Assembly (NCBI GenBank): GCA_963678065.2 | Contig: CAXXVZ010000003.1 | Span: 1,376,001 to 1,440,000, forward strand | Length of the DNA: 64,000 nt | Origin: Treponemataceae bacterium | Lineage (GTDB): Bacteria; Spirochaetota; Spirochaetia; Treponematales; Rectinemataceae | Reading direction: 5' to 3' | Translations under genes and position numbers: made by a program | Shown: positions 26,717 to 58,045 of the stretch, piece by piece | Layout of the letters: the number at the start of each line of letters is the position of its first letter | Position numbering within the stretch: the stretch's first letter is position 1 | Notes under the pieces: model-generated | What the model saw: the letters and a program-made list of their open reading frames with translations, nothing else | Databases searched by the model: none | Told to the model about the DNA's origin: nothing

Positions 26717-29013
26717 AAAGCCCCAAAGAGAGCGCCCTCAATGTCAAAGGGGCCACCCTCTACATCGACGATATCGCCGCGCCGACCGGCACCCTGGAGG
26801 GAGCGGTCAAACTCTCGACGAGCGCGCGCGGCCGCATCCTCTCCATCGACGCGACCCAAGCCCTCGAACTCGACCCCTCCGTGCGGGTCATCACCGCGAA
26901 AGACGTACCTGGCCAGAACCAGATCGGATTCTCCGTTCCTGATGAGGTCCTTCTCCCCGAGGATGAGTGGGAGTACTGGGGCCAGCCGATCGTTCTCTGC
27001 CTCGCGCGCACCCGCACCCTCGCGCGGCGGGCGGCCGCCCTCGTCGCCGTGACCGGCGAACCGCTTCCCGCCATACTCGACGAGCGCAAGGCCGCGAAGG
27101 CGGGTCACTTCATCCTCCCATCGCGGACCATGCGCTCGGGCGACCCGGAGGCCGCGTTCGCGGACTGCGCCACCGTGCTCTCCGGCACCGTCGTCTCGGG
27201 GGGCCAGGAGCACGTCTACCTGGAAACCCAGGGCGCCATCGCGGAAGTCCGCGACGGGGACAAGGTCTTCGTCATCTCCGGAACCCAGGGACCGACGGGC
27301 GTCCAGAAGGCCATCGCGCAGTCTCTCGGCATCCCCATGAACCGGGTCGAGGTCGAGGCGAGGCGCCTGGGGGGAGCCTTCGGCGGCAAGGAGGACCAGG
27401 CGGCCTACTGGGGAGCCCTCGCGGCCCTCGGGGCCTGGGTCAGCCGCAGGCCGGTCAGGCTCTATCTGAACCGGCGCGACGACATGCACGCCACCGGCAA
27501 GCGCCACCCCTACTCCTCGGACTACAAAATCGGCATGGATGCGGAGGGACGAATCCTCGCCTTCGAGGCGGACTACTACCAGAACTCGGGCTGCACCTGC
27601 GACCTCTCGCCCGCCATCCTCTCGCGCACACTCTTCCACGCGACCGGCGCCTACTCGATCCCGAACGTCAGGGTCACGGGCCACATGTGCCGCACGAACC
27701 TGCCATCTTTCACCGCCTTCCGCGGTTTCGGCGCACCCCAGGGCTTCTTCGTCGTCGAATCGGCCATCCAGGCTCTCGCGATCAAGTCGGGGCTGGACGC
27801 GAACGCCCTGCGCTACCACAACCTTTATAAGGAAGGCGAGATCACCCACTACGGCATGCCCCTCGTCTCATGCCGGACCACCGAGGCCTTCGACCGCCTC
27901 CTCGAGAAGACGCGATGGGCCTCGCTGCGCGACCGCATCGACGATTTCAACGCCGAGAACCGCCTGTACAAAAAGGGGGCGGCGATCATTCCGATCTGTT
28001 TCGGCATATCCTTCACGAAGCTTCTCATGAATCAGGCCGGGGCCCTCGTCCACGTCTACCAGGACGGCTCCGTCCTCGTCTCGACGGGCGCCATCGAGAT
28101 GGGTCAGCAGGTCAGCCGCAAGATAGCGGTGGCTGCGGCGGCCGCACTCGGCGTGGGGACAGAGCTCGTCTCGGTGGAGCGCACGACGACGCTGACAGTC
28201 GCCAACACGGTCCCGACCGCGGCGAGCACGGGCTCCGACCTCAACGCGATGGCCGCGACTCTCGCCTGCGAACAGATAAAGGCGCGGCTCGTCGCGAAGG
28301 CGGCGTCCATGCTCGGAGCCGAACCCGGATCGGTCTCGATCGAAGGCGGGCGCGTTTCCGTTTCGGGAGAGGAAGCAGAACTAGGCTGGGAGGCCCTTGT
28401 CACGGCGACCTACGAGTCGCGCGTCGACCTCTCCGCCCACGGCTTTTACTCGACGCCGGGTCTCTTCTACGACATGGCGACCGAACGGGGCAGCCCCTTC
28501 GCCTACCATGTCTACGGCGCTGCCTGCGTCGAGGCGACAGTGGATGTCCTCCGGGGGAGCTACACCCTCGACAGAGCGACCATCGTCCACGACATGGGCC
28601 GCAGCCTGGACGAGAAGGTCGACATCGGGCAGATCGAGGGAGCTCTCGCGCAGGGGCTCGGCTGGGCGCTGCTCGAGGACCTGCAGTTCGCGGGCTCGGG
28701 CGGTGTGCCTGTCCCGCCGGGCGCCCCCGCTACCGCGGGCAAACTGCTCGCCGACACGCTGTCGACCTACAAACTCCCCGACATCCACTTCATGCCGCCG
28801 GAGGTCGAAATCGAGTTCCTTTCCGAGAGGGACGGCCCCTCGGCCCTCCTGCGCTCCAAGGCGATCGGCGAGCCTCCTCTCATCTACGGCATCGCGGGCT
28901 ACTTCGCCGTTTTGGACGCGATGCGGGCCGCGCGGCTACGGGGACCCGGTCTCTTCGACCTTCCCCTGACGCCGGAAAAAGTGCTGGACTATATCATGGG
29001 GGTAAAACCGTGA
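26713..29013 (+). CDS. xdhB: Xanthine dehydrogenase molybdopterin-binding subunit
   Basis: GGQEHVYLE, GGAFGGKE, AFRGFGAPQG and SKAIGEPP. ATG 26713 overlaps the xdhA stop (ATGA). Confidence 0.92.
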   Translation: MKSPKESALNVKGATLYIDDIAAPTGTLEGAVKLSTSARGRILSIDATQALELDPSVRVITAKDVPGQNQIGFSVPDEVLLPEDEWEYWGQPIVLCLARTRTLARRAAALVAVTGEPLPAILDERKAAKAGHFILPSRTMRSGDPEAAFADCATVLSGTVVSGGQEHVYLETQGAIAEVRDGDKVFVISGTQGPTGVQKAIAQSLGIPMNRVEVEARRLGGAFGGKEDQAAYWGALAALGAWVSRRPVRLYLNRRDDMHATGKRHPYSSDYKIGMDAEGRILAFEADYYQNSGCTCDLSPAILSRTLFHATGAYSIPNVRVTGHMCRTNLPSFTAFRGFGAPQGFFVVESAIQALAIKSGLDANALRYHNLYKEGEITHYGMPLVSCRTTEAFDRLLEKTRWASLRDRIDDFNAENRLYKKGAAIIPICFGISFTKLLMNQAGALVHVYQDGSVLVSTGAIEMGQQVSRKIAVAAAAALGVGTELVSVERTTTLTVANTVPTAASTGSDLNAMAATLACEQIKARLVAKAASMLGAEPGSVSIEGGRVSVSGEEAELGWEALVTATYESRVDLSAHGFYSTPGLFYDMATERGSPFAYHVYGAACVEATVDVLRGSYTLDRATIVHDMGRSLDEKVDIGQIEGALAQGLGWALLEDLQFAGSGGVPVPPGAPATAGKLLADTLSTYKLPDIHFMPPEVEIEFLSERDGPSALLRSKAIGEPPLIYGIAGYFAVLDAMRAARLRGPGLFDLPLTPEKVLDYIMGVKP

Positions 29014-30476
29014 GCGGCCTCGGATCGACGATCCTGCGGAACGGACTCTTCGCCCTGCCGGGCGAGACGGATCTGAAGAGAAGAAGCATGCGGATCGAAA
29101 ACGGCCGTATCGCGGAAATATCGGAAACCCTGGCAGGAAATCCGGCCAGCCCCGGCGCCGGGTCAGAGGCCGGCAGCTTGCCCTCGCCCGGAACGATAAT
29201 CGTGGACGCGTGCGGCCTCATGGTCTTCCCCGGCGCGATCGACCCCCACGTCCACTTCGACGAGCCGGGTTTCACGCACCGCGAGGACTTCTTCCACGGA
29301 ACATGCGAGGCCGCGAAGGGCGGCGTCACGACGGTCGTCGACATGCCCTGCACCTCCCTGCCCCCGGTGACCACCCTGGAGGCCCTCGAGACCAAGCTCG
29401 CCATCATCTCGAAGCGCGCCGTCGTCGACTACGCCCTCTACGGCGGCGTCTCGGGCCATACGGCCGAAGCGAGCCTCGCGCGCCACATGGCGGAGCTTGC
29501 GCCGCGCGTCGTCGGCTTCAAGTGCTACTTCGTCTCCGGCATGGACACTTTCACGAGCGTCGATCCTGCGACCTTCGGCCGGGTGGTCGCGCAGGGCGCG
29601 GCGCTCGGAAGACCCGTTCTCCTCCACGCGGAGGATCCGGCCACGGTCCGTGCAGCCACGGAGCGCGTCCGCGCGCGCAGAGAGGACATCGCCGAGGGCC
29701 GCGTCGCTCCCGACGAAGCACCCGCATGGCGCGACTACTACGAGACCCGTCCCCGCGAAGCCGAGATCGAGGCCATGCGCTCCGCCCTGGAAGCCGCGGG
29801 AGAGAACGCCGCGACCCTCCACGTGGTCCATGTCGGAACCGCGCGGGCGGCGGAGCTCATAGCCGCATCCGGCGGCGCACCTTGCGCGGCGACGTGCGAA
29901 ACCTGCGCCCACTACCTCGCCTTCGACGAAAACGACTTTGCGCGACTCGGTGCCTCGCTCAAGACGGCCCCGCCCGTGAAAGGACCTGGGGAGAAGGCGC
30001 AACTCTGGAAGCTCCTCGCGTCGGGAGCGATCTCCTTCGTGACGAGCGACCACGCCCCGGCGCCGGATTACGAGAAGAACACGGGCAACCCGCTCACGGC
30101 CTACGGCGGCATCCCGGGCACAGGGACCATGTTCCCCTTCATGCTCTCGGAGGGCTATCTCGCGGGCAGACTCGGCCTTCCTCGCTTCCTGGATGCGGTC
30201 GCAGGCGCCGCCGCGCGCCGATACGGACTCTCTGGCCGCAAGGGCTCGCTCGAGCCGGGCAAGGACGCCGACTTCGTCCTCGTCGACCCGGCCGGAAAAA
30301 CGACCATCAGCGGCGAAAAGCTCCTCTCAAAAGGAAAAATCACGCCTTTCGAGGGCATGACCTTCTCAGGCTCGATCCGCTCGACCTGGCTGCGCGGCCG
30401 GGCCGTCTACACCGAACGCGATTCCATCCTCGCCGAACCCGGCTTCGGCGAATATCTGACCTGGGGGTGCCTGTGA
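29010..30476 (+). CDS. Cyclic amidohydrolase (allantoinase/hydantoinase/dihydroorotase family)
   Basis: DPHVHFDEPG..HREDF, DMPCTSLP, GFKCY, HAE, HVVH and SDHAP. GTGA overlap at the start. Confidence 0.85.
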   Translation: MSGLGSTILRNGLFALPGETDLKRRSMRIENGRIAEISETLAGNPASPGAGSEAGSLPSPGTIIVDACGLMVFPGAIDPHVHFDEPGFTHREDFFHGTCEAAKGGVTTVVDMPCTSLPPVTTLEALETKLAIISKRAVVDYALYGGVSGHTAEASLARHMAELAPRVVGFKCYFVSGMDTFTSVDPATFGRVVAQGAALGRPVLLHAEDPATVRAATERVRARREDIAEGRVAPDEAPAWRDYYETRPREAEIEAMRSALEAAGENAATLHVVHVGTARAAELIAASGGAPCAATCETCAHYLAFDENDFARLGASLKTAPPVKGPGEKAQLWKLLASGAISFVTSDHAPAPDYEKNTGNPLTAYGGIPGTGTMFPFMLSEGYLAGRLGLPRFLDAVAGAAARRYGLSGRKGSLEPGKDADFVLVDPAGKTTISGEKLLSKGKITPFEGMTFSGSIRSTWLRGRAVYTERDSILAEPGFGEYLTWGCL

Positions 30477-33688: not shown

Positions 33689-35163
33689 TCCTCTTCGAGA
33701 ACATGCGCATCATTTCATGGAACCCGCCCGCCGTATCGGGCCCCCTGGATGTCGTCGCCTATGGCCCGGATGAGGGCGTACCCTCACAGACTCTCCCGTC
33801 TCCGGGTGGCGCCGACGCGGGCAGCCCTGCCGGTGGCAGCCGGGCGGGAACAATCGCCGAAGTCGGCACCAATCTCGCAGCCCGCTACCCGGGCGCCAGG
33901 CGCGTCGCCTCGGGCGGCTACCTCTCGCCAGGCCTCGTGCTCTCCCACACACACCTCTACTCCGCCCTCGCGCGCGGCATGATGGTCTCGATCAAACCTT
34001 CCAAGGACTTCGCCCAGCAGCTCGATCACCTCTGGTGGCGCCTCGACCGGGCCATCGATCTTCCCATACTCGAATCGAGCGGGCTCGCCGGCCTCGCCGA
34101 CGCGGCCTTCTCGGGCGTCACGGCCGTCGTCGATCACCACGCCGGCCCCGAGGCGATCGACGGCAGCCTCTCCGTGCTCCGCGGAGCCTACGAGAAGATC
34201 GGTCTGCGCGGCCTCCTCTGTTACGAGACCACGGATCGCAACGGCATGGCCGGAGCGCGCGCGGGCGTGGCCGAAAACGTCAGATTCGCCCGCGAAATCG
34301 ACGCCGGACGAAAGGCAGGACGACGCCCCCTCGTCGACGGGGCCATCGGCGGACACGCCGGCTTCACCGTCGGCACCGAGACGCTGGAAGCCCTCGGAGA
34401 CGCCGTTTGCTCCACCGGACGGGGCATCCACATCCACCTCGGCGAGGATAAGTACGACGCCGTCGACTCACGCCATCGATTCGGAGCCGACCTCGTCGAG
34501 CGGATGGACGCGGCCGGCTGCCTCGGACCGAAGAGCATCGTCGGCCACGGCGTCTGGCTGACCGACAGCGAGGTCGAGATCCTGAACGGGCGCGATGCCT
34601 TCCTCGCCCACAACGCCCGCTCGAACATGAACAACGCCGTCGGCTACAACGCCCTCCTCACCCGTTTCAGGAACGTCATACTCGGGACGGACGGCATGAG
34701 CGCCGACATGCTCGAAGAGTTCAAGTTCGCCGTCTTCCGCCACCGCGAGACGGCCGGTCCCTGGTGGCCGGACAACTTCCTCGAGTGCATGGACCGCGGC
34801 AACCGCCTCCTCGAGCGCTATTTCGGCGCGGACTTCGCCCATGGCGCCGCTGCGAGCACCGCCGCCGCGAGCACTGTCCCCAGCGTCCCTGGACTCCCGG
34901 GCTCGGGTCCGCGCTTCGGCTCCATCGAGGCCGGAAGCCCCGCGGACGTGGTGGTCTGGAACTACGACCCGCCTACGCCCCTTGAGGGCGGCAATCTCGC
35001 GGGACACCTGGCCTTCGGCCTCGGATCCCGGTCGGTACGAAGCGTCGCCGTGAACGGCGATATGATCATAGAGAACGGACAGGCCCGATTCGACCAGGCC
35101 GCCATCATGGCGACCGCGCGCGACGAGGCCGCCCGGCTCTGGAAACGGATGGAGGAGAGGTAA
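33685..35163 (+). CDS. ssnA: SsnA-type amidohydrolase
   Basis: HTHLYSALARG, WWRLDRA, DHHA, CYETTDR and HNARSNMNN. Confidence 0.9.
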   Translation: MILFENMRIISWNPPAVSGPLDVVAYGPDEGVPSQTLPSPGGADAGSPAGGSRAGTIAEVGTNLAARYPGARRVASGGYLSPGLVLSHTHLYSALARGMMVSIKPSKDFAQQLDHLWWRLDRAIDLPILESSGLAGLADAAFSGVTAVVDHHAGPEAIDGSLSVLRGAYEKIGLRGLLCYETTDRNGMAGARAGVAENVRFAREIDAGRKAGRRPLVDGAIGGHAGFTVGTETLEALGDAVCSTGRGIHIHLGEDKYDAVDSRHRFGADLVERMDAAGCLGPKSIVGHGVWLTDSEVEILNGRDAFLAHNARSNMNNAVGYNALLTRFRNVILGTDGMSADMLEEFKFAVFRHRETAGPWWPDNFLECMDRGNRLLERYFGADFAHGAAASTAAASTVPSVPGLPGSGPRFGSIEAGSPADVVVWNYDPPTPLEGGNLAGHLAFGLGSRSVRSVAVNGDMIIENGQARFDQAAIMATARDEAARLWKRMEER

Positions 35164-35167
35164 ATCC

Positions 35168-37587: not shown

Positions 37588-37598
37588 AGGAGAACGAA

Positions 37599-39092: not shown

Positions 39093-40462
39093 TCCTGCTC
39101 GGGAACTGCCTCCGGGTCCTTCGCCATGACGGCGCGGACCTCGCGGGCGTCGATGTCCTCATAGACGGGGCGCGCATCGTGAAGATCGCTCCCCGGATCG
39201 AGGCGACCGGCGCCGACCGCGTCATCGACTGCTCCCGCATGGTGGTGGCTCCCGGCCTCGTCAACACGCACCACCACTTCTACCAGACCCTCACGCGCAA
39301 CCTGCCGGCCGTCCAGAACGCCAAGCTTTTCGACTGGCTTCTCTATCTCTACGAAATCTGGAAGGGCATCGACGAGGAGGCCGTCTACGTCTCGAGCCTC
39401 CTCGCGATGACCGAAATGATCAAGACGGGCTGCACCTGCACCACCGACCACCACTACCTCTACCCGGATACCTTTGTCGACGACCTCCCGGCCATTCAGT
39501 TCCGCGCGGCCGCCGAGCTCGGCATCCGCTTCGCGCCCACGCGCGGCTCGATGTCGCGCTCCAAAAAGGACGGCGGGCTTCCGCCCGACTCCGTCGTCCA
39601 GGACGAGGAGACGATCCTCGCCCACTGCGAGTCGACGATAACCCGCTTCCACGATCCCTCCCCCGATTCCATGCGACGTGTGGCCCTCGCGCCCTGCAGC
39701 CCCTTCTCCGTCTCCGAGGACCTCATGAAGAAGTCGGCCGCCCTCGCGAGGCGCCACGGCGTTCGCCTTCACACCCACCTCGCGGAGACTTCCGACGAGG
39801 ACGACTACTGCGTCTCTATCTACGGACGGCGCCCGCTCAAGCTCATGGAAGACTGCGGTTTCCTCGGCCCCGACGTCTGGTACGCCCACGGCATCTTCTT
39901 CAACGATGCCGAACTCGACCTCCTCGCGGCGACGAAGACTGGCGTCGCACACTGCCCCTCCTCCAACATGCGCCTGGGCTCGGGCATCTGTCGCGTACGC
40001 GAGATGCTGGACCGCGGCGTCCCCGTCGGCCTCGCTGTGGACGGCTCGGCGTCCAACGACTCCTCCGACATGCTCGGCGAGGCGCGCCAGGCCATGCTGC
40101 TGCAGCGCGTGCGCTACGGCTCAGGCGGACTCACGGCGAAAGAGACCTGGGAGATCGCGACCCGCGGCGGAGCGAGCATCCTCGGCTGGTCAGAGACCGG
40201 CAGCATCGAAGAAGGCATGCTCGCCGATATCTCCATCTGGAACATGGACAGGCTGGCCTACTCCGGCTCGCTCTCGGACCCCGCCGCCGCCCTCCTCTTC
40301 TGCGGCTACGACCACTCGGCCGACACGGTCATCGTGAACGGCCGCATCGTCGCCGAGAAGGGGACAGTGCTCGGGGTCGACGAAAACAAACTCAAGGACG
40401 ACGCCAACCGCGTCGCCCGAAACCTCTACAAAAAAGCGGGGATCGCTCTACAGACATGGTGA
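39089..40462 (+). CDS. 8-oxoguanine deaminase-like amidohydrolase
   Basis: NTHHHFYQTLTR, PCSPFS, HTHLAE, HCPSSNMRL and DGSASND. Confidence 0.85.
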   Translation: MILLGNCLRVLRHDGADLAGVDVLIDGARIVKIAPRIEATGADRVIDCSRMVVAPGLVNTHHHFYQTLTRNLPAVQNAKLFDWLLYLYEIWKGIDEEAVYVSSLLAMTEMIKTGCTCTTDHHYLYPDTFVDDLPAIQFRAAAELGIRFAPTRGSMSRSKKDGGLPPDSVVQDEETILAHCESTITRFHDPSPDSMRRVALAPCSPFSVSEDLMKKSAALARRHGVRLHTHLAETSDEDDYCVSIYGRRPLKLMEDCGFLGPDVWYAHGIFFNDAELDLLAATKTGVAHCPSSNMRLGSGICRVREMLDRGVPVGLAVDGSASNDSSDMLGEARQAMLLQRVRYGSGGLTAKETWEIATRGGASILGWSETGSIEEGMLADISIWNMDRLAYSGSLSDPAAALLFCGYDHSADTVIVNGRIVAEKGTVLGVDENKLKDDANRVARNLYKKAGIALQTW

Positions 40463-41493: not shown

Positions 41494-44396
41494 AAGTCTC
41501 CTTCACCCTCAACGGGAAAAAAGTCGCATGGGAAGCGGGAGAAGGCGAGAGCCTCAAAACCCTGCTCCGGCGCAAGGGCATAAGCTCGATCAAGGATGGC
41601 TGCGACGGCGAGGGCTCCTGCGGCCTTTGCGCGGTCATCATGAACCGCAAGCTCGTCAACTCCTGCCTCCTCCTCGCTCCCCAGGTCGAGGGGGCCGAGG
41701 TCCTCACGGTCGAGCACTTCTCCAAAGACCGAAAGCTCTCGGTCGTCCAGCGAGCCCTCGTCGACGCGGCCTGCGTCCAGTGCGGCTACTGCACCCCCGC
41801 GGTCGTCCTCGCGGTCCACGAACTTCTCGAGCGCGACCGCAACCCCGACGAGGCCGCCATCCGCGACGCTCTCTCGGGAACCATCTGCCGCTGCACGGGC
41901 TACGAGCAGTTCTACAACGCCGTCCGGATCGCCTCGCGCCGCCTCGACGATCCTTCCTACGCCGAGTCGGCCGCCCCCGAGTTCCGCCCCGACCTCAGGC
42001 ACATCGGCAAGGACCGCGAGAAGGTCGACGCGGCCAGTCTCGTGCGCGGCGAGAAGGCCTTCGTGGAGGACCGCCTCGACTCAGGCGCCTGCCACCTGAA
42101 GCTTCTCGGAAGCCCCCACGCCCACGCCTGGATAAGCTCGATCGACACATCCGAGGCGGAAGGTATGCCCGGCGTCGTCGCCGTGCTGACCCACAAAAAC
42201 TGCCCCGATCAGGTCTACACGACAGCCGGCCAGGGCTTCCCCGAGCCCTCGCCCCACGACCAGCGCATGTTCTCGCGCAAAGTCAGGCATGTGGGCGACC
42301 GCGTCGCCGCCATCCTCGCCGAGACTCCCGAGGAGGCCGAGGCCGCCCTCGCGACGATAAAGGTCGAGTACGAGGTCCTGAAACCCGTCCTCTCCATCGC
42401 CGAGGCCAAGGCCCCCGGCGCGCCCATCGTCCACTCGGGCGAGGTCCGCTACGTGGCCGGCTCAGCCCCCGCGGGGACCTCGACGGCCGGAGACGGCCGC
42501 GACGACCCGATAATCTATCAGTTCCCCCTCCATTCCGACCCCCACCGCAACCTCGCGGCGAGCGCCGAGGCCGGCATCGGCGACATCGACTCGGGCTTCG
42601 CCGAGGCCGACGTCGTGATCGAGCGGAGCTACCGCGGCAACCGCGTGCAGTCGACCCCCTTGGAGCCCCACGAGGTCTTCGCGAAGATGGATCGCGACAG
42701 GCTCGTGCTGCACGCCTCGACCCAGGTTCCCTGGCACGTCAGACGCATTGTCGCCCGAGTCATCGGCATCCCCGAAAACAAGGTCCGCGTCATCAAGGAG
42801 CGCGTCGGCGGCGGTTTCGGCGCCAAGCAGGACATCGTCGTCGAGGACCTCGCCGGCTATCTCGCCTGGACCACCGGGCGATCGGTCTTCTTCCGCTACA
42901 CGAGAGAGCAGGAGTTCATGGCGAGCCGCACCCGCCACGCCATGGAGATCACCGTGAAGCTCGGCGCGAAGCGCGACGGCAAACTCACGGCCATCCTCAT
43001 GAAGCTCGACGCGGACACCGGACCCTACGGCCAGCACTGCCTGACCGTACCCATGAACGCCATCTCCAAAAGCCTGCCGCTGCTCCTGTGCGATAACGCC
43101 CGCTTCGAGGTCAAAAGCTACTACACGAACCTCTCCCCCGCCGGAGCCTATCAGGGCTACGGGGCTCCCAAGGGTTCTTTCGCCCTCCAGACCTGCCTCG
43201 CCGAGCTCGCGGCGGAACTTGGAATTCCCCAGCTCGACATGATCGAGAGGAACCGCGTGCGCTCCGGCAGCCGCATCGAGATTCTCAAAAGCCTCGGCGA
43301 AGGTCGCGAAGGCGCCGCCGTGACCCTGGGCGAGTGCGGCCTCGGCGACATGATCGATCGCGGAAAGGCCGACATGAACTGGGGACAGAGCTGGCCTCCC
43401 GCCGCGGCCCTCAGATCCGCCTTGGGAGCCGGCGGCGCCGCAGCCGATCCCGACATCGCGCTCGGCCGCGGCGCCGTCATCATCCAGCAGGGCTCGGGTC
43501 TGCCCGGCCTGGACGCCGCCAACGCCGAGATCCGCCTTCTCGCCGACGGCACCCTCCTCCTCCTCTCAGGCGGCGCCGACCTGGGGACAGGGCTCGACAC
43601 AGTCACCGCCAAAGCGGCTGCCGAGATCCTCGGCCTCGACATGGAGGACGTGGCCGTCGTCTCGGGCGACACCGACACGACCCCCTTCGACAAGGGCGCC
43701 TACGCCTCCTCGGGCACCTACTTCTCCGGCAACGCCGCCGTGAAGGCCGCCGAGGACCTGCGCGCCAAGGTGCTCGCCGTAGCCTCGGTCGTCCTCGGAG
43801 AACCCGTTTCCGACCTCGCCATCGCCCACCGCGGGCGCATCGTCGGCAAGAAGGGCGAGACGACCCTCGCCAAACTCGCCCACATATCGGTGCAGGGCGA
43901 GGGCCACGGAGACCTCGTCGGCTCGGGTTGCTTCAAGACCGACCACGCCGCCTTCCCCTACGGCGTCCACATCGCCGAGGTCGCGGTGAACCGTCGCACC
44001 GGCGACGTGAAAGTGCGCAAATACTACGCCTACCAGGACTGCGGCACGCCCATCAATCCGGCCCTCGCCAAGGGCCAGATCTACGGCGCCGCCCTCAAGT
44101 CCATCGGCCACTCGCTCTACGAGGAAATGCTCTACGACGAGAAGGGACAGTGCCTGAATCCGCGCTTCCTCGACTACAAGGTCCCCACCGTCTTCGAGGT
44201 TCCGGATGACTTCCGCGTCGAGCTCATGCCCGTCGCGGACGAGGTCGGCCCCTTCGGTGGCAAGTCTATCTCCGAGATCGCCGTCAACGGCGCCGCCCCG
44301 GCCATCGCCATCGCCATCCACGACGCGATCGGCGTCTGGTGCCGTGAGTGGCCCTTCACGCCTGAGCGCATCCTGAAGGCGATGGGGAAGATATGA
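41490..44396 (+). CDS. xdhD: XdhD-type fused [2Fe-2S]/molybdopterin oxidoreductase
   Basis: GCDGEGSCGLC, QCGYC, CRCTGY, GAYQGYGAPK, AYASSGTY and GGKSISEI..NGAAPAI (XdhD signature). Confidence 0.9.
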   Translation: MKVSFTLNGKKVAWEAGEGESLKTLLRRKGISSIKDGCDGEGSCGLCAVIMNRKLVNSCLLLAPQVEGAEVLTVEHFSKDRKLSVVQRALVDAACVQCGYCTPAVVLAVHELLERDRNPDEAAIRDALSGTICRCTGYEQFYNAVRIASRRLDDPSYAESAAPEFRPDLRHIGKDREKVDAASLVRGEKAFVEDRLDSGACHLKLLGSPHAHAWISSIDTSEAEGMPGVVAVLTHKNCPDQVYTTAGQGFPEPSPHDQRMFSRKVRHVGDRVAAILAETPEEAEAALATIKVEYEVLKPVLSIAEAKAPGAPIVHSGEVRYVAGSAPAGTSTAGDGRDDPIIYQFPLHSDPHRNLAASAEAGIGDIDSGFAEADVVIERSYRGNRVQSTPLEPHEVFAKMDRDRLVLHASTQVPWHVRRIVARVIGIPENKVRVIKERVGGGFGAKQDIVVEDLAGYLAWTTGRSVFFRYTREQEFMASRTRHAMEITVKLGAKRDGKLTAILMKLDADTGPYGQHCLTVPMNAISKSLPLLLCDNARFEVKSYYTNLSPAGAYQGYGAPKGSFALQTCLAELAAELGIPQLDMIERNRVRSGSRIEILKSLGEGREGAAVTLGECGLGDMIDRGKADMNWGQSWPPAAALRSALGAGGAAADPDIALGRGAVIIQQGSGLPGLDAANAEIRLLADGTLLLLSGGADLGTGLDTVTAKAAAEILGLDMEDVAVVSGDTDTTPFDKGAYASSGTYFSGNAAVKAAEDLRAKVLAVASVVLGEPVSDLAIAHRGRIVGKKGETTLAKLAHISVQGEGHGDLVGSGCFKTDHAAFPYGVHIAEVAVNRRTGDVKVRKYYAYQDCGTPINPALAKGQIYGAALKSIGHSLYEEMLYDEKGQCLNPRFLDYKVPTVFEVPDDFRVELMPVADEVGPFGGKSISEIAVNGAAPAIAIAIHDAIGVWCREWPFTPERILKAMGKI

Positions 44397-44433
44397 TCTG
44401 GATCGTTCAAACCGGTGCATAACAGTTGCTGTC

Positions 44434-44457
44434 AGGTGGGGACTCTAGTCCCCACCT
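44434..44457. repeat. Perfect 11-bp inverted repeat (REP-like hairpin or operon terminator)
   Basis: aggtggggact-ct-agtccccacct; no U-tract. Confidence 0.75.
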
Positions 44458-44532
44458 AGCTGCCGCTTAGCTTAGCTGCTTAGCTGGAGTCGTTTTCTAT
44501 CAATAGGCGCAGCTCCAGTTCTACCTTCTCCC

Positions 44533-44612
44533 GAAACTCTGGGACAGTGCTCGAAACTCCTGAAACTCTCTGGGGACAGTGCTCGGATTTGTGCTGGTGG
44601 TGCTCGGATTTT
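44533..44612 (+). repeat. Cluster of short direct repeats upstream of RAYT (candidate REP elements)
   Basis: gaaactc x3, gggacagtgctcg x2 (44541, 44573) and gtgctcggattt x2. Confidence 0.75.
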
Positions 44613-44663
44613 CTAGGATTTGAGGATTCAAGCAAACCTCGTACTCGGTAGCGTATACATGGT

Positions 44664-45182
44664 ATGAGAAAGCCACGCGAGCTACAGGACGGCGCACGCT
44701 ATCACGTCACGGCGCGTGCGAACCGGAAAGAGATGATTCTCGATTCAGGTTCGATGAAGGAGCTTTTCCTTTCGGTCGTGAAAAGGGCAAAACAGAAGTA
44801 CCGTTTCCGGATCGAGAACTTCTGCATCATGGGAAACCACTTTCATTTCATTATCAAGCCTGCTAAGAGCGAGAACCTTTCCGCGATCATGCGCTGGATC
44901 ATGAGTGTGTTCGCCATGGCATACAACCGGATTCGTAATTTCACCGGTCATGTGTGGGGTTCGAGATTCTTTTCGCGGATCATCTCCGGGCTGCGAGAGT
45001 TCATGCATGTGTTCGGATATATTGACGACAATCCGGTGAAGGCCTGTCTGGTTGCCGACCGACGAACCTGGCGATATGGAGGACTCGGCCATATTCGAGA
45101 AGGATGTCGAGAGATTCTCGACGAGTGGCCAACCTGGCTTTCATTCTTGTTCCCGGACCATGCACCGCTTTTGCTTCATTAG
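44664..45182 (+). mobile_element. REP-associated tyrosine transposase (RAYT, Y1 HUH family)
   Basis: YHVTARAN, HUH motif NHFH, WGSRFFSR and YIDDNPVKA catalytic Tyr; no tnpB or terminal IRs. Confidence 0.88.
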
Positions 45183-45348
45183 TCCGGGACTCTGACAAAT
45201 GAAGCTATGTGTGCCATCCCTGGATGGCCGATACTGGGAATGAACGGGCAGGAGTGAAAAATGGCGATTCCAGACTACCAGCATGTGGAGGTTCTCCATC
45301 ACGATCGACGGAATCTCCGCAGCAAACACCCTTCTTTGAGCGAAACCC

Positions 45349-46302: not shown

Positions 46303-46353
46303 CCTCTCCTCCCACGATCGTTTGTATCGACATTGCTGACATTGCAGGCTCCG

Positions 46354-48099
46354 TCAGTTCGCGTGCGTCTGGTGCGTCCTTCGCGGAATGCAGATCGCTA
46401 CCATCGACATCTTTCCGTTCTCGCTCTGCACTTCCACCGAATGATCCTCGGGATACAGAAGGCGCAAGCGCTGCAGGACGCTGTACGACCCGAATCCGAC
46501 CGCATCGGCGTCGACGCCCGGATCGGCGATCGCGCGCTTCAATCGTTCCAGAGCCCCGGACTCGAAGCCGCGCCCATTGTCGCACACTTCGACCCTGATC
46601 CTGTCGTTCCGGATGCTCGCGTCGACGTCGATCCTGAATCCCACATCGATTCCCGGGCAGAATCCGTGCACCAGAGAATTCTCGACGAGGGGCTGGAGTA
46701 TCATGTTGGGGACAGTGCTTTCCATGAGTGCATCGTCCGCGGTCACGGTGAAAATGACCTCCCGGCCGTAGGTCGAAGCGAAAATCCCGACGTAGCTGCG
46801 GATGTTGGCGATCTCCTCGCGCAGTGATACGAATTTCGTATCGTGTTTCCGGAGGATCGCCCGCAAGTACTCCCCGGCTTCCGTCGCGAGCCTTCCCGCC
46901 TTTTCGTTCTCGCCGAGACAGGAGAGAGCGTCGATCGTGGAGAGGATGTTACAGATGAAGTGGGGACTGACCTGCGATTGCAGGGAGCGGTATTTGATCT
47001 CCAGAAACTCGTACTCGGCCTGGTGCTTCTGATTCTCTTCGCTGACGATTCTCTCCATCGCCTGACCGAGTCTTCCGGTCATCCGATTGAAATGCTCGGC
47101 GAGCAGGCCGATCTCGTCGCGGGCATCCACTTTGATAATGGTGCCAAGTTTTCCGGAACTGACGTCTTCCATGCTGACGATCAGCGTGTTCACATTCCGC
47201 GTGATCGAATTGGAGATGATGACAGCGACGACGATGGCTCCGAGGCCGAGTACGAGGGCCAGGAGGTACACGAGTCGCTTCATCGATTGCCAGACGCGCA
47301 GCATCGAATCCATCGGCTCACAGTTCACGATGAACCATTCGCCGTCGGAACTCGAAAGGCCTGTCACATAGTACGTTTTCCCGCCATGTTCGAAGGGCGA
47401 GCTGATCCTGACTCCGCGCAGATCGAAGGCGATCTTCACCGCGTCTGTCATGGACTCGTCCAGCCCCGCACGGGAACTGACTATCCGCAAGTCGCGGTTG
47501 AGTATCGCCGCGGGCCAGGAGCTGTCACCCTCGCTTCCGAAAATCGAGCGAAGGTAGTCCTCGTCGACGCGGATGGCGATGACCCCGAGGTATTGCAGGG
47601 GGAAGATCTTGAAGATGTCTTTCTTGAGATAGACTCCGCCATCTTTTGCCCTGAGCCAGGCCGTCGGGCTTTCAGTGTCGAAAAAACCTTCGCCGGCCAG
47701 GGTCTCCATTTCGCGGATTTCCTCCTCAGACTGGTCGCGCGAGCCGAAATGGCGCCCGCCCTCCTTGTCGATGACGAGGACATCCCGGATGTAGGGAACC
47801 TCGGCGCACATGGTGCGCAAGATGCCCCGGACGGCGAGATTCTTCGAGGCGACGTCCGCGTTCTGGAGGAGATAGCCGGGAAGGCCTGAATTGGTGTACA
47901 GACGGAAGAGATTGCCGTCCATGTTCTGCGCGAAAAGTTCGAAACCCATGAGAGTCTGTTCGCAGAGTATGCGGTTGGCCTGCGCCTTTTCGGCGACCGT
48001 GTTCTTCTCGCCGACCCAGTCGCTGAAAACGGCGATCGAGACCGAGAGCGCAGCGATGATGAGGATGAACCCGAGAATCATTTTGTTTCGGAGTTTCAT
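46354..48099 (-). CDS. YesM-like sensor histidine kinase (HAMP, His_kinase)
   Basis: Two TM segments, DEIG..FNRM, QVSPHF, QPLVEN..HG and DNGRG. Confidence 0.93.
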   Translation of the reverse strand: MKLRNKMILGFILIIAALSVSIAVFSDWVGEKNTVAEKAQANRILCEQTLMGFELFAQNMDGNLFRLYTNSGLPGYLLQNADVASKNLAVRGILRTMCAEVPYIRDVLVIDKEGGRHFGSRDQSEEEIREMETLAGEGFFDTESPTAWLRAKDGGVYLKKDIFKIFPLQYLGVIAIRVDEDYLRSIFGSEGDSSWPAAILNRDLRIVSSRAGLDESMTDAVKIAFDLRGVRISSPFEHGGKTYYVTGLSSSDGEWFIVNCEPMDSMLRVWQSMKRLVYLLALVLGLGAIVVAVIISNSITRNVNTLIVSMEDVSSGKLGTIIKVDARDEIGLLAEHFNRMTGRLGQAMERIVSEENQKHQAEYEFLEIKYRSLQSQVSPHFICNILSTIDALSCLGENEKAGRLATEAGEYLRAILRKHDTKFVSLREEIANIRSYVGIFASTYGREVIFTVTADDALMESTVPNMILQPLVENSLVHGFCPGIDVGFRIDVDASIRNDRIRVEVCDNGRGFESGALERLKRAIADPGVDADAVGFGSYSVLQRLRLLYPEDHSVEVQSENGKMSMVAICIPRRTHQTHAN

Positions 48100-49682
48100 C
48101 GCCTGTCCCGGACGGTGCTGCGGTAATCCCTCGGAGTGATGCCCTCCCTCCTCGTGAACACGTTGTAGAAGGTCACGTAGTTCTTGTAGCCGACGGCCTC
48201 GGAAATTTCGTTGATCCGGTAGCGAGGATCGAGGAGGAGGTTTTTGGCGAGGGCCATCTTGGCGTCGATCACGCAGTCGGAGTATTTCTTGCCTGTATGT
48301 TTTTTGACGAGGGCACTGACATAGGTGGGACTGACGGTGAAATGCGAGGCGAGGCCCTCCAGGGACAGGCGCTCCGAGGCGTGCAGGTCGATGTACAGGA
48401 GGATATTGTTGGCCAGAAGGGAGGACTTCGGTCCGGAAGGGCAGAGGCTGTCGGATACCTGCCTCACGAAGACCGAGAGAATCCTCTGCGCGAGCGCCAT
48501 GTCCGCGAGCCGCTTCAGCTGCCGCACGGTCTCGTCCACAAAGCCGGATACGTCGACGGAGCCCTCAGCCACCCTCCCCTTTATGAAACGGACACAGAAA
48601 TCGATGAAGTAGAACTTCATGATGAGGGGATCCCTGTTGGTCAGCTGCGCCAGCGAGGCGGAAAATTCCTTGAGGATCGCATCGGTGTCCTCGCGCCGTT
48701 CCCGGAGTTTTTCGCATGTCGCATCGACGAGAAGGGAAATGTCAGCGAAGCTTCTTCCCTTGATGTGGCCGAAACGATTCTCTGCGAAGGAATAGACCAC
48801 CTCATCACGGTCCGGACAGAGTTCCTCAGGGAGATCGAGGACTTCGCAGTACGCGGCGGGTAGATCCGAGTGCGAGTTGTGGAGACGGCTGACGCTGACC
48901 TGCCTGATCCGCATTCCGCAGCAGGTGAGGCATTTTATGGTTTCGACCACGAGGGAGCGCGGGACGCCTTCCTGTTCTTCCCTCAGGAAAAAAAACATGA
49001 TGAGTCGGTTGGAGAGATACAGGCTGACCGTCAGCGCGCTGTCCGACACCCGGCGCTCGGCCAAAAGCGAGGACAGAGCGTTTTCGTCGTAGAGTTCGAA
49101 GGCGTCCGTGGCGATGGCGAAAAACGACGAGAAGACGAGATTTTCCCGCTCCAGGAGAAATCTGATCCGGTCATCGGGCAGCATCAGATTGTTCAGGATG
49201 AGGGTCAGGGCGGCGACCCTCCCTGGCGCGGAAACCAGCAATGGCGTGGCGTTGCGAAGGGCTGTGTCCGGATTGCTCGCTGGATGGGCCAAAGTCGCGC
49301 GCCCGGCCTCGATGAGATGCACCGCCTTCATGACGGTTTCCGTGAGTTTCTTCCTGTCCACCGGTTTCAGCACATAGTCGAAGGCGCCGATCTTGAGTGC
49401 CCTGACGGCGTAGTCGAACTGGTCGTAGGCGCTGATGAAGATGACCTTGGCCTCCGGAAGGATTTCCCGGACCAGCTCGATCATCCTGAGGCCATCCATG
49501 CCAGGCATGTTTATATCGGAAAGGATGATGTCGGGCTTGTTGGCGATGATGGCCTGACGGCCCTGGAGTCCGTCGAAGGCTACCGCGGCGACAGAACAGC
49601 CGAGGAGATCCCAATCGATGGTTTTGGCGAGCATCTCGGCTGCATACCTGTTGTCGTCTATGATCACGACTCTGTACGGCAT
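48096..49682 (-). CDS. YesN-like response regulator (REC + AraC HTH)
   Basis: IIDD, SDINMPGMDG, LKP and C-terminal AraC motif GY...F...G.TP..YR. Confidence 0.93.
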   Translation of the reverse strand: MPYRVVIIDDNRYAAEMLAKTIDWDLLGCSVAAVAFDGLQGRQAIIANKPDIILSDINMPGMDGLRMIELVREILPEAKVIFISAYDQFDYAVRALKIGAFDYVLKPVDRKKLTETVMKAVHLIEAGRATLAHPASNPDTALRNATPLLVSAPGRVAALTLILNNLMLPDDRIRFLLERENLVFSSFFAIATDAFELYDENALSSLLAERRVSDSALTVSLYLSNRLIMFFFLREEQEGVPRSLVVETIKCLTCCGMRIRQVSVSRLHNSHSDLPAAYCEVLDLPEELCPDRDEVVYSFAENRFGHIKGRSFADISLLVDATCEKLRERREDTDAILKEFSASLAQLTNRDPLIMKFYFIDFCVRFIKGRVAEGSVDVSGFVDETVRQLKRLADMALAQRILSVFVRQVSDSLCPSGPKSSLLANNILLYIDLHASERLSLEGLASHFTVSPTYVSALVKKHTGKKYSDCVIDAKMALAKNLLLDPRYRINEISEAVGYKNYVTFYNVFTRREGITPRDYRSTVRDRR

Positions 49683-49710
49683 CGGCGCCACCTTCCAATT
49701 CAAGGACAGA

Positions 49711-50904
49711 TTACCCTGCCGACCCGGCCTTTTCCAGACCTTTGAAGTAATAAATCGAATCGTCCTTCGCCCTGATGTCGGTGAGAGTACCTGAATAGTG
49801 GCGGAGATTCCGGGGCGCGTAGGGCCTCTGCGCTATCTCCTTCTCGTCGAGTTCGATGCCGAATCCGGGTTTGTCCGGGATCATGATGCATCCGTCTTTA
49901 TACACTACTTCCTCGTTGGATACTTTCTGCCTGAAGGAACCGTCGGTGAGCATGATCTCGTGGATGAGGAAGTTCGGGACACAGGCCGCGAGTTGGAGGA
50001 TGGCCATGTTGGATACGGGGCCGCTCGGATTGTGGAAGGAAACCGGGATGTGGCAGGCTTCGGCCATCGCTGCGATCTTCTTCGCCTCCATGATGCCGCC
50101 GGCGTGGAAAACGTCGGGCTGGGCGATATCGATGGCCTTTTTGGAGAGCGCTTCCCAGAAACCGTATTTCGTGAGTATCCGTTCCCCCGCCGCGATGGGC
50201 ACACAGGACTTGTCGCGCACCATCGCGAGGGCGTCCATATTGTCCGGGGGAACGGGCTCCTCCATGAACATGGGCTTGAACTGCGCGAGTTCGCGCGAGA
50301 TCAGGATGGCCGTGGAGGGGTTGAAGCGCCCGTGACATTCGATGAGGAGGTCGACATGGGGGCCGACGGCGTCCCGTACCGCGCCGACGCAGTTCACGGC
50401 TTTCTCCATCTCGCGCGTGGATACGGTCATGTAGGCGGAGCCGAAGGGATCCCACTTCAGCGCGTCGATGCCGAGGGCCGCGGTCGCCACTGCCCTGGCC
50501 GCGAAATCGGCCGGTTCCCTCCCGCCCACGAACCAGGCGTTGGCGTACATCCTGACCCTGTCGCGTATCTTGCCGCCGAGGAGGTTGTAGACGGGAGTGT
50601 TGAAATATTTTCCCGCGATGTCCCACATGGCCATCTCGATCCCGCTCAGGGCGGACAGAAAAATTTCGCCACTCTTCCAGTAGGAATCCCGGTAGACCTC
50701 GAACCACATTTTCTCGGTGTCCAGCGGACTCCGGCCGATGACGAGGCGCTTCAGATCCTCGACGCAGCCTGCGAGCGAGAGCTCCCTCGTTCCGAGCGAA
50801 GCCTCGCCCCAGCCATGGAGGCCCTCGTCGGTCTCGACTTTGATGAAGGTCCAGTTGGTCCTGTAAGCGTCCATGGTGAATGATTTGACATCGGTTATGC
50901 GCAT
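49711..50904 (-). CDS. dgoD: Galactonate dehydratase-like enolase-superfamily enzyme
   Basis: GWGEA, YANAW, KWDP, ECHGR, EEP, GER, QPD and HNPSGP. Confidence 0.75.
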   Translation of the reverse strand: MRITDVKSFTMDAYRTNWTFIKVETDEGLHGWGEASLGTRELSLAGCVEDLKRLVIGRSPLDTEKMWFEVYRDSYWKSGEIFLSALSGIEMAMWDIAGKYFNTPVYNLLGGKIRDRVRMYANAWFVGGREPADFAARAVATAALGIDALKWDPFGSAYMTVSTREMEKAVNCVGAVRDAVGPHVDLLIECHGRFNPSTAILISRELAQFKPMFMEEPVPPDNMDALAMVRDKSCVPIAAGERILTKYGFWEALSKKAIDIAQPDVFHAGGIMEAKKIAAMAEACHIPVSFHNPSGPVSNMAILQLAACVPNFLIHEIMLTDGSFRQKVSNEEVVYKDGCIMIPDKPGFGIELDEKEIAQRPYAPRNLRHYSGTLTDIRAKDDSIYYFKGLEKAGSAG

Positions 50905-50909
50905 TGTCC

Positions 50910-51614
50910 TCACGCTCCTTTTATGGAAGATCGACGCAGGGCTTCGACGTGGAGACGCGCGAGTCCGGCGATCGCTGCAAAATCGCGCCTCAGGACCAGT
51001 TCGGGCTTCAGTACGGTGATGCCGGTCGCGACTGCCGTGATCCCCGCGGCCAGAAATTCCGGGATGGTATCGGGATTCACGCCACCCGTGGCCATGAGGG
51101 GTATGTGGGACAGGGGAGAGCGAATGTTCCTGATGTAGTGGTAGCCCAGGTCGTCTGCCGGGAAAAGCTTCACGATGTCAGCTCCGCAGTCCCAGGCATG
51201 GACGATCTCGGTGGGTGTCATCGCGCCCGGTATGGAGATCATGCCGAGGCGTTTGGTTTCTTCTATTACAGAGGCTTTGGTGTTAGGGGAGATTATGTAT
51301 CCGGCGCCGGCATCCCGAGCAGCCCTCACCTCGTCGAGGTCGAGCACTGTCCCCGCGCCGATCCTCATGCGTGTTCCCATGCGGGCACATATCGACGAGA
51401 TGGCTTTTTTCGTGCGCTCGATCCTGTCCTGTCTGTCCTGGGCGAAGGTCACCTCGAGGAGCAGCACGCCGCCCTCGAAGAGGGCTTCGGCTATCGTCGC
51501 CATGTCCGCAGGTTCTATATTCCGGGCGATGACGACAAAGCGCTCGCGCCGGATGGCTTCCATCGTCGCGTCCCTCGTCGAGCTGGCCGACATACCGGCA
51601 ATCGTTCCGCTCAT
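50910..51614 (-). CDS. KDPG/KDPGal aldolase (Eda/DgoA family)
   Basis: LEVT, GAGTVL, SPN, PGAMTPTE, VKLFP and TGGV. Confidence 0.92.
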   Translation of the reverse strand: MSGTIAGMSASSTRDATMEAIRRERFVVIARNIEPADMATIAEALFEGGVLLLEVTFAQDRQDRIERTKKAISSICARMGTRMRIGAGTVLDLDEVRAARDAGAGYIISPNTKASVIEETKRLGMISIPGAMTPTEIVHAWDCGADIVKLFPADDLGYHYIRNIRSPLSHIPLMATGGVNPDTIPEFLAAGITAVATGITVLKPELVLRRDFAAIAGLARLHVEALRRSSIKGA

Positions 51615-52399: not shown

Positions 52400-52567
52400 G
52401 CTTGCCCATCCTCCTCGTCGTCCATTCGCAGTATAGGGCATCCCCCGCGCTTGGCAATCGACGAAGAATCAAATGACAAAACGGGTTAATAAAATCGCAA
52501 GGCCCGTACATATTTTTCTCCGGGAAGCGGGCTTATGCTGGGATCATTCTATTGGAGGAGGCTGATC

Positions 52568-53842: not shown

Positions 53843-53921
53843 AAAAAGGGCCGGTTCTTGTCGTCCAGAACCGGTTCTTGTCAGCCGGATGGGCCAGACG
53901 GGCAGGAATAAAGGAATTGCT

Positions 53922-55636: not shown

Positions 55637-55689
55637 ATCGCGATTCCCGCCGAATTCGCTACAAAATCATCGATATCGGAGAATCGTCC

Positions 55690-55720
55690 TTGACTCTCCT
55701 CTTGGGGGAGACCGCAACCT
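55690..55720 (+). promoter_or_regulatory. MerR-type promoter/operator (TTGACT-19-CAACCT with dyad)
   Basis: 19-bp spacer containing the dyad TCTCCTC-TT-GGGGGAGA. Confidence 0.8.
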
Positions 55721-55742
55721 TCGTATCCACCAGGAGGTTCCT

Positions 55743-58039: not shown

Positions 58040-58045
58040 GCGGAT

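What the first reader, a model, noticed from the sequence alone, without database searches (positions are those of the whole stretch)
28154..51354. RAYT-flanking motif (CT)GGGGACAGTGCTCG recurs inside protein-coding genes on both strands around the RAYT
Seen: the motif is repeated upstream of the RAYT (44570-44585 and 44541-44553). It recurs inside CDSs as exact matches: 16/16 reverse in ssnA (34868-34883), 15/15 in the deaminase (40360-40374), 14/14 reverse on + in the KDPG aldolase (51341-51354) and 13/13 in the histidine kinase (46707-46719). One-mismatch copies occur in xdhB (28154-28168) and xdhD (43581-43596, 43379-43392). The copies are read in three registers (G-T-x-L, W-G-Q-S, antisense S-T-V-P) and often use GGG-ACA codons that are uncommon in these genes. 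Of 9 GGGGACAG hits found by eye, 8 continue NGCT, and all 8 lie within about 17 kb of the RAYT. Established: RAYTs are HUH nucleases that recognise and spread short REP sequences, normally in intergenic DNA. Inference: this RAYT may convert near-cognate coding sites to its recognition sequence in cis without breaking proteins, a form of intragenic REP imprinting.
Basis: partly seen in the sequence, partly recalled or inferred. Interest (0 to 1): 0.8.

Follow-up and report, generated by a model that had tools for sequence, protein, structure and literature searches.

The report
Transposase stamps its motif into neighbours
A small transposase-like gene in an environmental spirochaete is surrounded by copies of its own 12-base motif inside ordinary protein-coding genes, and related bacteria show the same local pattern with their own motif variants, which suggests the enzyme rewrites nearby genes while leaving them in frame.

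Summary
Observation confirmed. All nine copies match as stated. GGGGACAGNGCT occurs 19 times in the 5.27-Mb genome; 12 lie within -17/+47 kb of its only RAYT. Nearby genes hold 10 copies against 0.28 after synonymous shuffling.

The halo recurs in all 8 genomes tested, each with its RAYT's own tail; in G002, 23 of 24 GGGGACAGACC copies are on the RAYT contig. Orthologues show two outcomes: colinear recoding (xdhD, an invariant peptide with motif codons in 0 of 29 orthologues; xdhA; deaminase) and in-frame insertions in tolerant loops (ssnA).

The motif is not a REP: it has no hairpin and no GTAG. It fits the published TIRYT consensus GGGGWSAS, though this gene lacks the inverted pair and the HTH. 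Best reading: the HUH nuclease copies a 12-16-nt patch into nearby DNA, and selection keeps tolerated events. That chemistry is inferred, not shown. Against strict cis action, 37 of 58 G039 copies lie over 60 kb from the cognate RAYT. I found no paper describing such halos. This scan noted the same pairing twice on other DNA.

The parts
44664..45182 (+). Y1 (HUH) tyrosine transposase, RAYT/TIRYT type, 172 aa; H59-F-H61 and Y119 intact; no C-terminal HTH; only copy in the genome
   Evidence: Pfam Y1_Tnp E 4e-13; NCBIfam NF047646 83.7 bits, cut-off 80; aligns to E. coli TnpA-REP 4ER8 with HUH and Tyr in register; one tblastn hit in G000; positions
44530..44620 (+). Upstream array: two direct copies of the motif (44541-44553, 44570-44585) among short duplicated pieces; presumed donor or binding site
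   Evidence: Sequence; does not fold; a sense-strand copy lies 50-95 bp before the gene in most close homologues; a loose contig end at 44591 in run X5 suggests strain variation
28154..28168 (+). Copy in the xdhB-like molybdopterin subunit (26713-29013), read V-G-T-E-L; colinear replacement that changes amino acids
   Evidence: 12 of 12 orthologues colinear, 11 of 12 have Pro where this genome has Gly, none has the motif
34868..34883 (-). Copy in ssnA (33685-35163), antisense, read S-T-V-P, inside an inserted low-complexity loop with partial copies
   Evidence: All 16 orthologues lack most or all of the loop; one contig of run X11 (depth 6) carries a further in-frame 57-nt expansion here, and an X5 contig spanning the site has 15 gap letters
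40360..40374 (+). Copy in the 8-oxoguanine deaminase-like gene (39089-40462), read K-G-T-V-L
   Evidence: Thr in 0 of 20 orthologues; colinear with 15 of 20
43379..43392 (+). Copy in the xdhD-like gene (41490-44396), read W-G-Q-S, at the start of a length-variable loop
   Evidence: Alignment with 29 orthologues
43581..43596 (+). Copy in xdhD at the invariant L-G-T-G-L-D peptide: purely synonymous recoding; the one mismatch falls where the consensus base would replace a conserved Gly
   Evidence: Peptide identical in 29 of 29 orthologues, no indel, GGG-ACA codon pair in 0 of 29
44143..44156 (+). Partial copy in xdhD (3 mismatches of 14), read K-G-Q-C
   Evidence: Gln in 0 of 29 orthologues, Arg in 22 of 29; may be chance
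46707..46719 (+). Copy in the sensor histidine kinase gene (46354-48081, minus strand), antisense, read S-T-V-P
   Evidence: no orthologue at E<=1e-60 in 200 genomes of the order, so not polarised
51341..51354 (-). Copy in the KDPG aldolase gene (50910-51623), sense, at the conserved G-A-G-T-V-L peptide: synonymous recoding
   Evidence: Two paralogues and one homologue keep G-A-G-T-V with other codons
44436..44457 (+). GC-rich hairpin after the xdhD stop, probably a terminator; shares GGGGAC with the motif but is not shown to belong to the element
   Evidence: Fold z -3.2; not repeated next to related RAYTs in the flanks read

Best explanation
The Y1/HUH nuclease recognises the non-palindromic motif GGGGACAG-W-GCT(CG) kept just upstream of its gene and copies a 12-16-nt motif patch into DNA that is physically close. 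Shown: the halo, its link to the cognate gene and motif variant, its fall-off with distance, and two products (colinear replacement of several bases; in-frame insertion or short tandem duplication). Inferred: the enzyme nicks single-stranded DNA and joins or primes a motif-bearing strand onto a partly matching site, and host repair or replication closes the second junction a few bases away, as in short-patch illegitimate recombination. Purifying selection then keeps only events that stay in frame and leave the protein usable, so copies read as G-T-V/E-L, G-Q-S, G-D-R-A, S-V-P, L-S-P or L-C-P. Once made, copies seem to drift. When the gene moves or the chromosome rearranges, orphan clusters remain. 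I put a causal, local role of the RAYT at about 0.85 and this templated-patch chemistry at about 0.6.
For: Local excess; G-T-[VEG]-L peptides are motif-coded in 4 of 6 cases near the RAYT against 7 of 176 elsewhere (Fisher p 1e-4). Same genes elsewhere: 1 copy in 311 kb of xdh-cluster DNA from 16 other genomes against 5 in 21 kb here. Replication: excess at 0.6-30 kb from the cognate RAYT in 8 of 8 genomes tested, p 2e-5 to 8e-31. Variant specificity: G002 has 23 of 24 and G012 8 of 9 GGGGACAGACC on the RAYT contig, while the 5 copies in G000 are all far from its RAYT; G064 has 24 of 24 on its two RAYT contigs; the AGGT tail dominates around the G037 RAYT, 13 of 20. Genome level: all 14 of 69 family genomes with >=20 GGGACAGWGCT carry a RAYT, and 42 genomes without a match have at most 12. 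Colinear recoding. Four successive third positions, tail included, differ between G006/G047 and G046 at an unchanged R-A-L-S-P. A motif was gained in G049 by three adjacent changes relative to G048, with G022 sharing G048's Pro. Insertions: 21-30-nt in-frame tandem units in G039, G048/G049 and run X11. Catalytic residues are intact, and E. coli TnpA-REP cleaves and strand-transfers ssDNA in vitro (PMC3333891 passages).
Against: There is no direct evidence of cleavage or copying. In the complete genome G039, 37 of 58 copies lie over 60 kb from the cognate RAYT, in clusters with no RAYT remnant in the 20-kb stretches fetched; its two other Y1 genes have a palindromic 13-mer spread at 76 sites. 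In G000 both upstream copies have T at position 9, yet 5 of the 11 copies beyond the array have A, so one fixed donor does not explain all. Both strands are used on single contigs (G002 16 plus, 10 minus), which does not fit a lagging-strand-only model. In 12 of 25 close RAYT loci the motif was not the top distal 10-mer, and no such motif appeared in 32 distant loci. Most G048/G049 sites are shared (23), so few single-step gains were caught, and one three-change site cannot be polarised. Distant genes of G000 also show a 4-5-fold excess over shuffles. Related genomes are not independent samples.
Confidence: 0.6

Rival explanations
1. Footprints of local hopping: a larger element ending in the motif inserts near its parent and is later removed imperfectly, leaving one end. 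Only in-frame scars survive.
For: The RAYT sits at different places in different genomes and was seen beside the xdh cluster only in G000 and G013. Orphan clusters exist in G039. Insertion-type copies are common.
Against: Purely synonymous, colinear copies in invariant peptides (xdhD 43583, aldolase, R-A-L-S-P) need a scar exactly as long as the DNA lost. G000 has no inverted downstream copy within 2.9 kb. Shared sequence never extends beyond about 16 nt.
Confidence: 0.15
2. Uptake-sequence-like drive: motifs arise by ordinary point mutation and spread because motif-bearing DNA near the RAYT is preferentially mobilised or recombined.
For: The pattern in proteins resembles uptake sequences: several frames, and poorly conserved positions preferred (PMC2817400 abstract). 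Amino-acid divergence within 30 nt of copies is 0.216 against 0.129 far away. Single-base gains or losses also occur.
Against: It does not explain tandem in-frame units ending in the motif, or three to four adjacent changes between genomes about 90% identical. Uptake sequences are genome-wide, whereas this is local and follows each RAYT's tail.
Confidence: 0.14
3. Host-selected binding sites: the protein, or another factor, organises or regulates the local chromosome domain, and sites are kept by selection like parS or matS (analogy recalled, not from a call).
For: Four-fold-degenerate positions inside copies differ less between G048 and G049 than distant ones (9 of 68 against 263 of 1054, p 0.03). 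RAYTs are proposed to have an unknown host function (PMC5581495 passages).
Against: Sites were picked for having the motif in at least one genome, which by my estimate lowers the expected divergence to about 0.19, so 0.13 is not a clear excess. Tails change between related RAYTs, the gene is patchy (27 of 69 genomes), and halos fall on unrelated genes.
Confidence: 0.08
4. Chance, codon bias, or a horizontally acquired island that brought the motif with it.
For: Genes right of the RAYT are accessory (kinase 0 of 200 genomes, aldolase 1 of 68). Some copies fall on peptides that favour them (G-Q-S-W in Asp-box repeats).
Against: Five copies are in the widely shared xdh cluster, whose orthologues lack them. 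Shuffles never reach the count. GGG and ACA codons are no more frequent near the RAYT than elsewhere. The pattern replicates in 8 of 8 genomes.
Confidence: 0.03

Closest known systems
TIRYT / TIRtron (Di Nocera et al. 2013, PMC3733652), about equal to TnpA-Y1 subclass 2.1 (Quentin et al., 10.1101/279083)
   Same: RAYT-like Y1 gene flanked by a non-REP repeat fitting GGGGWSAS; GGGGACAG and the GGGGTCAG of distant homologues both fit.
   Different: Described as long terminal inverted repeats around the gene with modest repeat families; the passages read say nothing of local halos or recoded codons. This gene has direct upstream copies only, and no C-terminal HTH.
REPtron: TnpA-REP/RAYT with REP, BIME or REPIN (PMC3333891, PMC8266576, PMC5581495)
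   Same: Same HUH/Tyr enzyme family (NF047646, 4ER8); single-copy gene with a cognate repeat; cleavage, strand transfer and local amplification are shown or proposed.
   Different: REPs are 20-50-nt GTAG-tagged hairpins, mostly intergenic and genome-wide. Here the motif is 12-16 nt, unstructured, mostly intragenic and concentrated near the gene. Known intragenic REPs are insertions; here colinear replacements occur as well.
[quoted passage not shown]
   Same: Produces clustered substitutions or microindels templated by ssDNA at microhomologies, like the products seen here.
   Different: SPDIR is rare, unprogrammed, uses any ssDNA and is modelled on the lagging strand. Here one motif is written repeatedly, near one enzyme gene, on both strands.
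DNA uptake sequences of Neisseria and Pasteurellaceae (PMC2817400)
   Same: A short motif accumulates in coding DNA in several frames and at tolerant positions (abstract).
   Different: Uptake sequences are genome-wide, built by point mutation plus biased uptake, and not tied to a nearby transposase.

Membership tests
RAYT / TnpA-REP protein family | Y1_Tnp domain with HUH motif and catalytic Tyr; passes the RAYT profile | tested here: met
   PF01797; NF047646 83.7 against cut-off 80, IS200 model 21.6 against 55; H59/H61 and Y119 align with 4ER8
REPtron (RAYT + REP/BIME/REPIN) | Flanking 20-50-nt palindromes with a GTAG-type foot | tested here: not met
   Array does not fold, z +1.1 and +1.5; no GTAG/CTAC adjoining the motif copies
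REPtron (RAYT + REP/BIME/REPIN) | Repeat abundant genome-wide and mostly extragenic | tested here: not met
   19 copies, 12 near the gene; at least 83 of 130 copies in called genes across 8 genomes
TIRYT / TIRtron | Flanking motif fits GGGGWSAS | tested here: met
   GGGGACAG at 44572
TIRYT / TIRtron | Terminal inverted repeats on both sides of the gene | tested here: not met
   No inverted core between 45183 and 48102; an inverted downstream copy within 400 bp is rare among 37 related loci
TnpA-Y1 subclass 2.1 | C-terminal HTH extension | tested here: not met
   172 aa, Y1_Tnp only; the 28 close homologues in the tree are 168-200 aa
TnpA-Y1 subclass 2.1 | Placement in the published subclass clustering | not tested
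   The paper's reference sequences and profiles were not available to me (bioRxiv supplements closed)
HUH transposases in general | Metal-dependent ssDNA cleavage and strand transfer on the cognate site | not testable with these tools
   Needs purified protein
DNA uptake sequence / HIP1-like motif | Roughly uniform genome-wide over-representation | tested here: not met
   No GGGGACAGNGCT on C3 between 60 and 300 kb from the RAYT; about 80-fold density contrast

The most novel reading that the evidence does not exclude
A widespread group of Y1/HUH nucleases performs natural, templated short-patch editing: each enzyme overwrites partly matching 12-16-nt sites within tens of kilobases with the motif stored beside its own gene, recoding even conserved enzymes and seeding new protein loops. 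Changing the stored motif would change what is written.
Probability: 0.45. Interest if true: 0.92.

Novelty: new variant of a known kind. Interest (0 to 1): 0.78.

Why it matters
What RAYT-type nucleases do in vivo is an open question: evidence that they move their repeats is called indirect, and their maintenance unexplained (PMC5581495 passages). A distance-dependent, variant-specific halo is strong comparative evidence of activity and gives a direct assay: a known motif, a known range and swappable variants. It also points to a source of clustered substitutions and small in-frame insertions in ordinary genes, which could mislead tests of selection and codon usage. If the patch is templated by the adjacent copy, a 172-residue enzyme that writes short sequences is of interest as a tool.

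Tried and rejected
One-sided hypermutation 5' of the motif, suggested by eye: not supported (Wilcoxon p 0.39-1.0; 23 shared sites in G048/G049 and 6 in G006/G047). A point-mutation halo around copies: four-fold-degenerate divergence within 60 nt is 85 of 328 against 263 of 1054 far away, p 0.72 (G006/G047 28 of 60 against 76 of 212, p 0.14), so the variable flanks reflect tolerant protein stretches and indels. Active maintenance of copies: not established (ascertainment). An unbiased 11-mer clustering scan was swamped by a large repeat array on C5 and was not repeated, so I cannot say how the motif ranks among all clustered words. Polarising the kinase and aldolase sites: no usable orthologues. 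G002 versus G022 and G012 versus G048/G049 were mostly too divergent (66-79%) to read single events. Laying four runs: all were contigs, the table of differing letters was cut (40 shown, 3811 not), and none of the rows shown is at a motif site. Lower cover over the RAYT in X11 and X12 is no evidence of absence. Promoter scan: no sigma-70-like site at 44380-45400. Literature: searches listed nothing relevant, and the one GGGGACAG hit read was a primer. Three look-ups of earlier findings gave nothing. No structure prediction was run.


Full report
Observation. The window is G000:C3:1,376,001-1,440,000 of a 5.27-Mb genome in 5 contigs; its closest homologous loci are titled as spirochaetes. GGGGACAGNGCT occurs 8 times in the window against a shuffle mean of 0.04 and 19 times in the genome, 12 of them between 16.5 kb left and 47 kb right of the gene at 44664-45182. 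That gene is the genome's only Y1 transposase hit. None lies between 60 and 300 kb from it on C3. With genes called by my own hexamer model (3575 genes, 76% of the genome), the 54 genes near the RAYT hold 10 copies against 0.28 after synonymous shuffling (0 of 1000), and 3433 distant genes hold 7 against 1.8 (0 of 10). GGG and ACA codons are no commoner near the gene (0.16 and 0.09 against 0.19 and 0.12).

The enzyme and its motif. The protein passes the RAYT profile NF047646 but not the IS200 one, and keeps the HUH and Tyr of E. coli TnpA-REP. The motif is not a REP: the array does not fold. Di Nocera et al. describe RAYT-like TIRYT genes flanked by inverted repeats with consensus GGGGWSAS (passages), and Quentin et al. 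equate them with subclass 2.1, whose TIRYT examples all carry an HTH (section read whole). The motif fits. The inverted pair and the HTH are missing here. Close homologues carry GGGACAG plus a gene-specific tail 50-95 bp upstream, mostly on the sense strand: AGCT, TGCT, ACC, AGGT, TCCT. A distant clade (31-37% identity, support 100/100) has GGGTCAG or GTGTCAG instead. Tail types cluster only loosely on the tree (9 of 34 branches well supported).

The halo is general and variant-specific. Of 69 family genomes, 27 have a RAYT match. All 14 with at least 20 GGGACAGWGCT are among them, and the 42 without a match have at most 12; Fisher p is 1e-7, overstated because kin are not independent and many genomes are incomplete. 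In the 8 genomes whose listings were complete, copies 0.6-30 kb from the cognate gene were 9 of 18 (G000), 18 of 21 (G002), 4 of 5 (G012), 22 of 24 (G064), 13 of 25 (G006), 18 of 35 (G021), 7 of 19 (G005) and 16 of 57 (G039), against expected fractions of 1-5%. These genomes were chosen for having a RAYT; the pattern came from the gene's own flank, except for G064, whose flank I did not read. G002 has 23 of 24 and G012 8 of 9 ACC-type copies on the RAYT contig, while G000's 5 ACC copies are far from its gene. On the three long contigs (G000, G002, G039) counts were 20, 13, 10 and 8 at 0.6-5, 5-15, 15-30 and 30-60 kb, about 0.76, 0.22, 0.11 and 0.04 per kb per genome (my arithmetic; the last bin is cut for G002). 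Among loci, the motif was the top distal 10-mer in 13 of 25 close loci, 9 of 17 at 31-37% identity (one titled Bacteroidales) and 0 of 32 more distant ones; 4 loci were too short. Some of these loci repeat genomes counted above. In 12 stretches from 8 genomes, at least 83 of 130 copies over 700 bp from a RAYT lie in called genes (coding density 84%; the caller misses genes), in all six frames, 58 sense and 25 antisense (p 4e-4), on both strands. The sense excess could reflect protein tolerance or transcription; I cannot separate them.

What happened at the sites. At xdhD 43583 the peptide L-G-T-G-L-D is invariant in 29 of 29 orthologues, and only this genome uses the motif codons. At xdhA 28155 the alignment is colinear in 12 of 12, and a Pro kept in 11 of 12 has become Gly. 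At the deaminase site Thr is found in 0 of 20. The aldolase copy recodes the conserved G-A-G-T-V. The ssnA copy lies in a loop that 16 of 16 orthologues largely lack, and one low-depth contig of a related strain carries a further in-frame 57-nt expansion there (run X11). Stretches around the same cluster in 16 other genomes, six of them with a RAYT match elsewhere, hold 1 copy in 311 kb. In closer pairs, G006 and G047 differ from G046 at four successive third positions of an unchanged R-A-L-S-P, all towards the motif. G049 has a copy where G048 (90% identical) and the outgroup G022 share a Pro, which points to a gain by three adjacent changes. Tandem in-frame units of 21-30 nt containing the motif occur in G039 and differ in number between G048 and G049. 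So there are two products: replacement and insertion.

Mechanism. HUH enzymes cut single strands, hold the 5' end on Tyr and free a 3'-OH (PMC8266576 Introduction). TnpA-REP cleaves at a distance from its binding site and recombines substrates in vitro (PMC3333891 passages). Microhomology-guided uptake of short single strands is known to give clustered substitutions and microindels (10.1101/2024.07.02.601687 passages). I infer that this nuclease delivers a 12-16-nt motif patch to nearby, partly matching DNA, that the host closes the second junction, and that selection filters the outcome. The local range could come from a cis-acting protein or from the need for contact with a donor copy; neither is shown. 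After creation, copies look neutral: no excess of synonymous change around them and no clear maintenance, with amino-acid divergence raised within 30 nt (0.216 against 0.129), as expected if copies survive in tolerant stretches.

Results against. In G039, 37 of 58 copies lie over 60 kb from the cognate gene, in clusters without RAYT remnants in the 12 stretches fetched. Its other two Y1 genes have a dispersed palindromic motif at 76 sites. In G000, 5 of 11 halo copies have A where both upstream copies have T; an older A-type donor, as in most relatives, would explain this but is untested. Both strands are used, against a simple lagging-strand model. Few single-step gains were caught. My idea of one-sided hypermutation failed.

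Novelty. The enzyme family and the consensus motif are published. A local halo that recodes neighbouring genes was not found in searches for RAYT (18 of 19 papers listed), TIRYT (2 works listed), TnpA-REP since 2019, motif drive, SPDIR, cis preference or the broader. The library lacks most subscription papers, I read most papers only in passages, and I did not see the figures and supplements of the two TIRYT papers. PMC5581495 was read in passages and PMC2817400 as abstract. This scan noted the pairing on other DNA twice (e1-4975408; e1-2560388); these are unchecked notes, not support. Verdict: real, a new variant of the RAYT/TIRYT kind with an undescribed behaviour, mechanism inferred; interest 0.78.

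Noticed in passing
G000:C5:754,726-930,161: A repeat of about 130 bp with 111 marker hits, spaced mostly 0.5-5 kb apart, with ends like integron attC sites (resemblance recalled): probably a large cassette array.
   Followed up: partly
G000, e.g. C3:104,985 and C5:766,123: Thirteen listed GGGGACAG hits share a near-identical context of about 40 bp with tail AACC, probably the end of a multicopy insertion sequence; unrelated to the halo as far as seen.
   Followed up: no
L029 and L032 (G039): Two Y1 genes, 76% identical to each other, are flanked by palindromic 13-mers (GGTGMCWGKCACC; 76 sites genome-wide against 0 control), with a local cluster near 2.11 Mb.
   Followed up: partly
L227-L233, L241 (glycerate kinase-like gene): A 4-5-residue insertion reading S/T-L-G/D-T-V/T/A-L is shared by 8 of 20 orthologues, with exact motif codons only in G049; possibly an old motif insertion that became fixed and decayed.
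   Followed up: no
L148:17841-20348: A motif copy lies in a conserved G-G-T-E-H-A stretch of an 836-aa ORF that looks like leucyl-tRNA synthetase (identification recalled, not tested).
   Followed up: no
L089 (G013:C57:56,798-60,000): A RAYT lies about 17 kb from xdhD in G013, with its own tail (ACAC) in 4 copies within 3 kb and none in the xdh genes fetched.
   Followed up: partly
window 44664-64000 and beyond to about 100 kb: The RAYT sits at the border between the widely shared xdh cluster and a run of sugar-uptake and catabolic genes, two of which were tested and have few or no orthologues in the family.
   Followed up: partly
window 44112-52000: A 19.8-kb contig of run X6 spans the RAYT and the genes to its right with 138 differing and 85 gap letters, so a related strain has the gene at the same place.
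   Followed up: no
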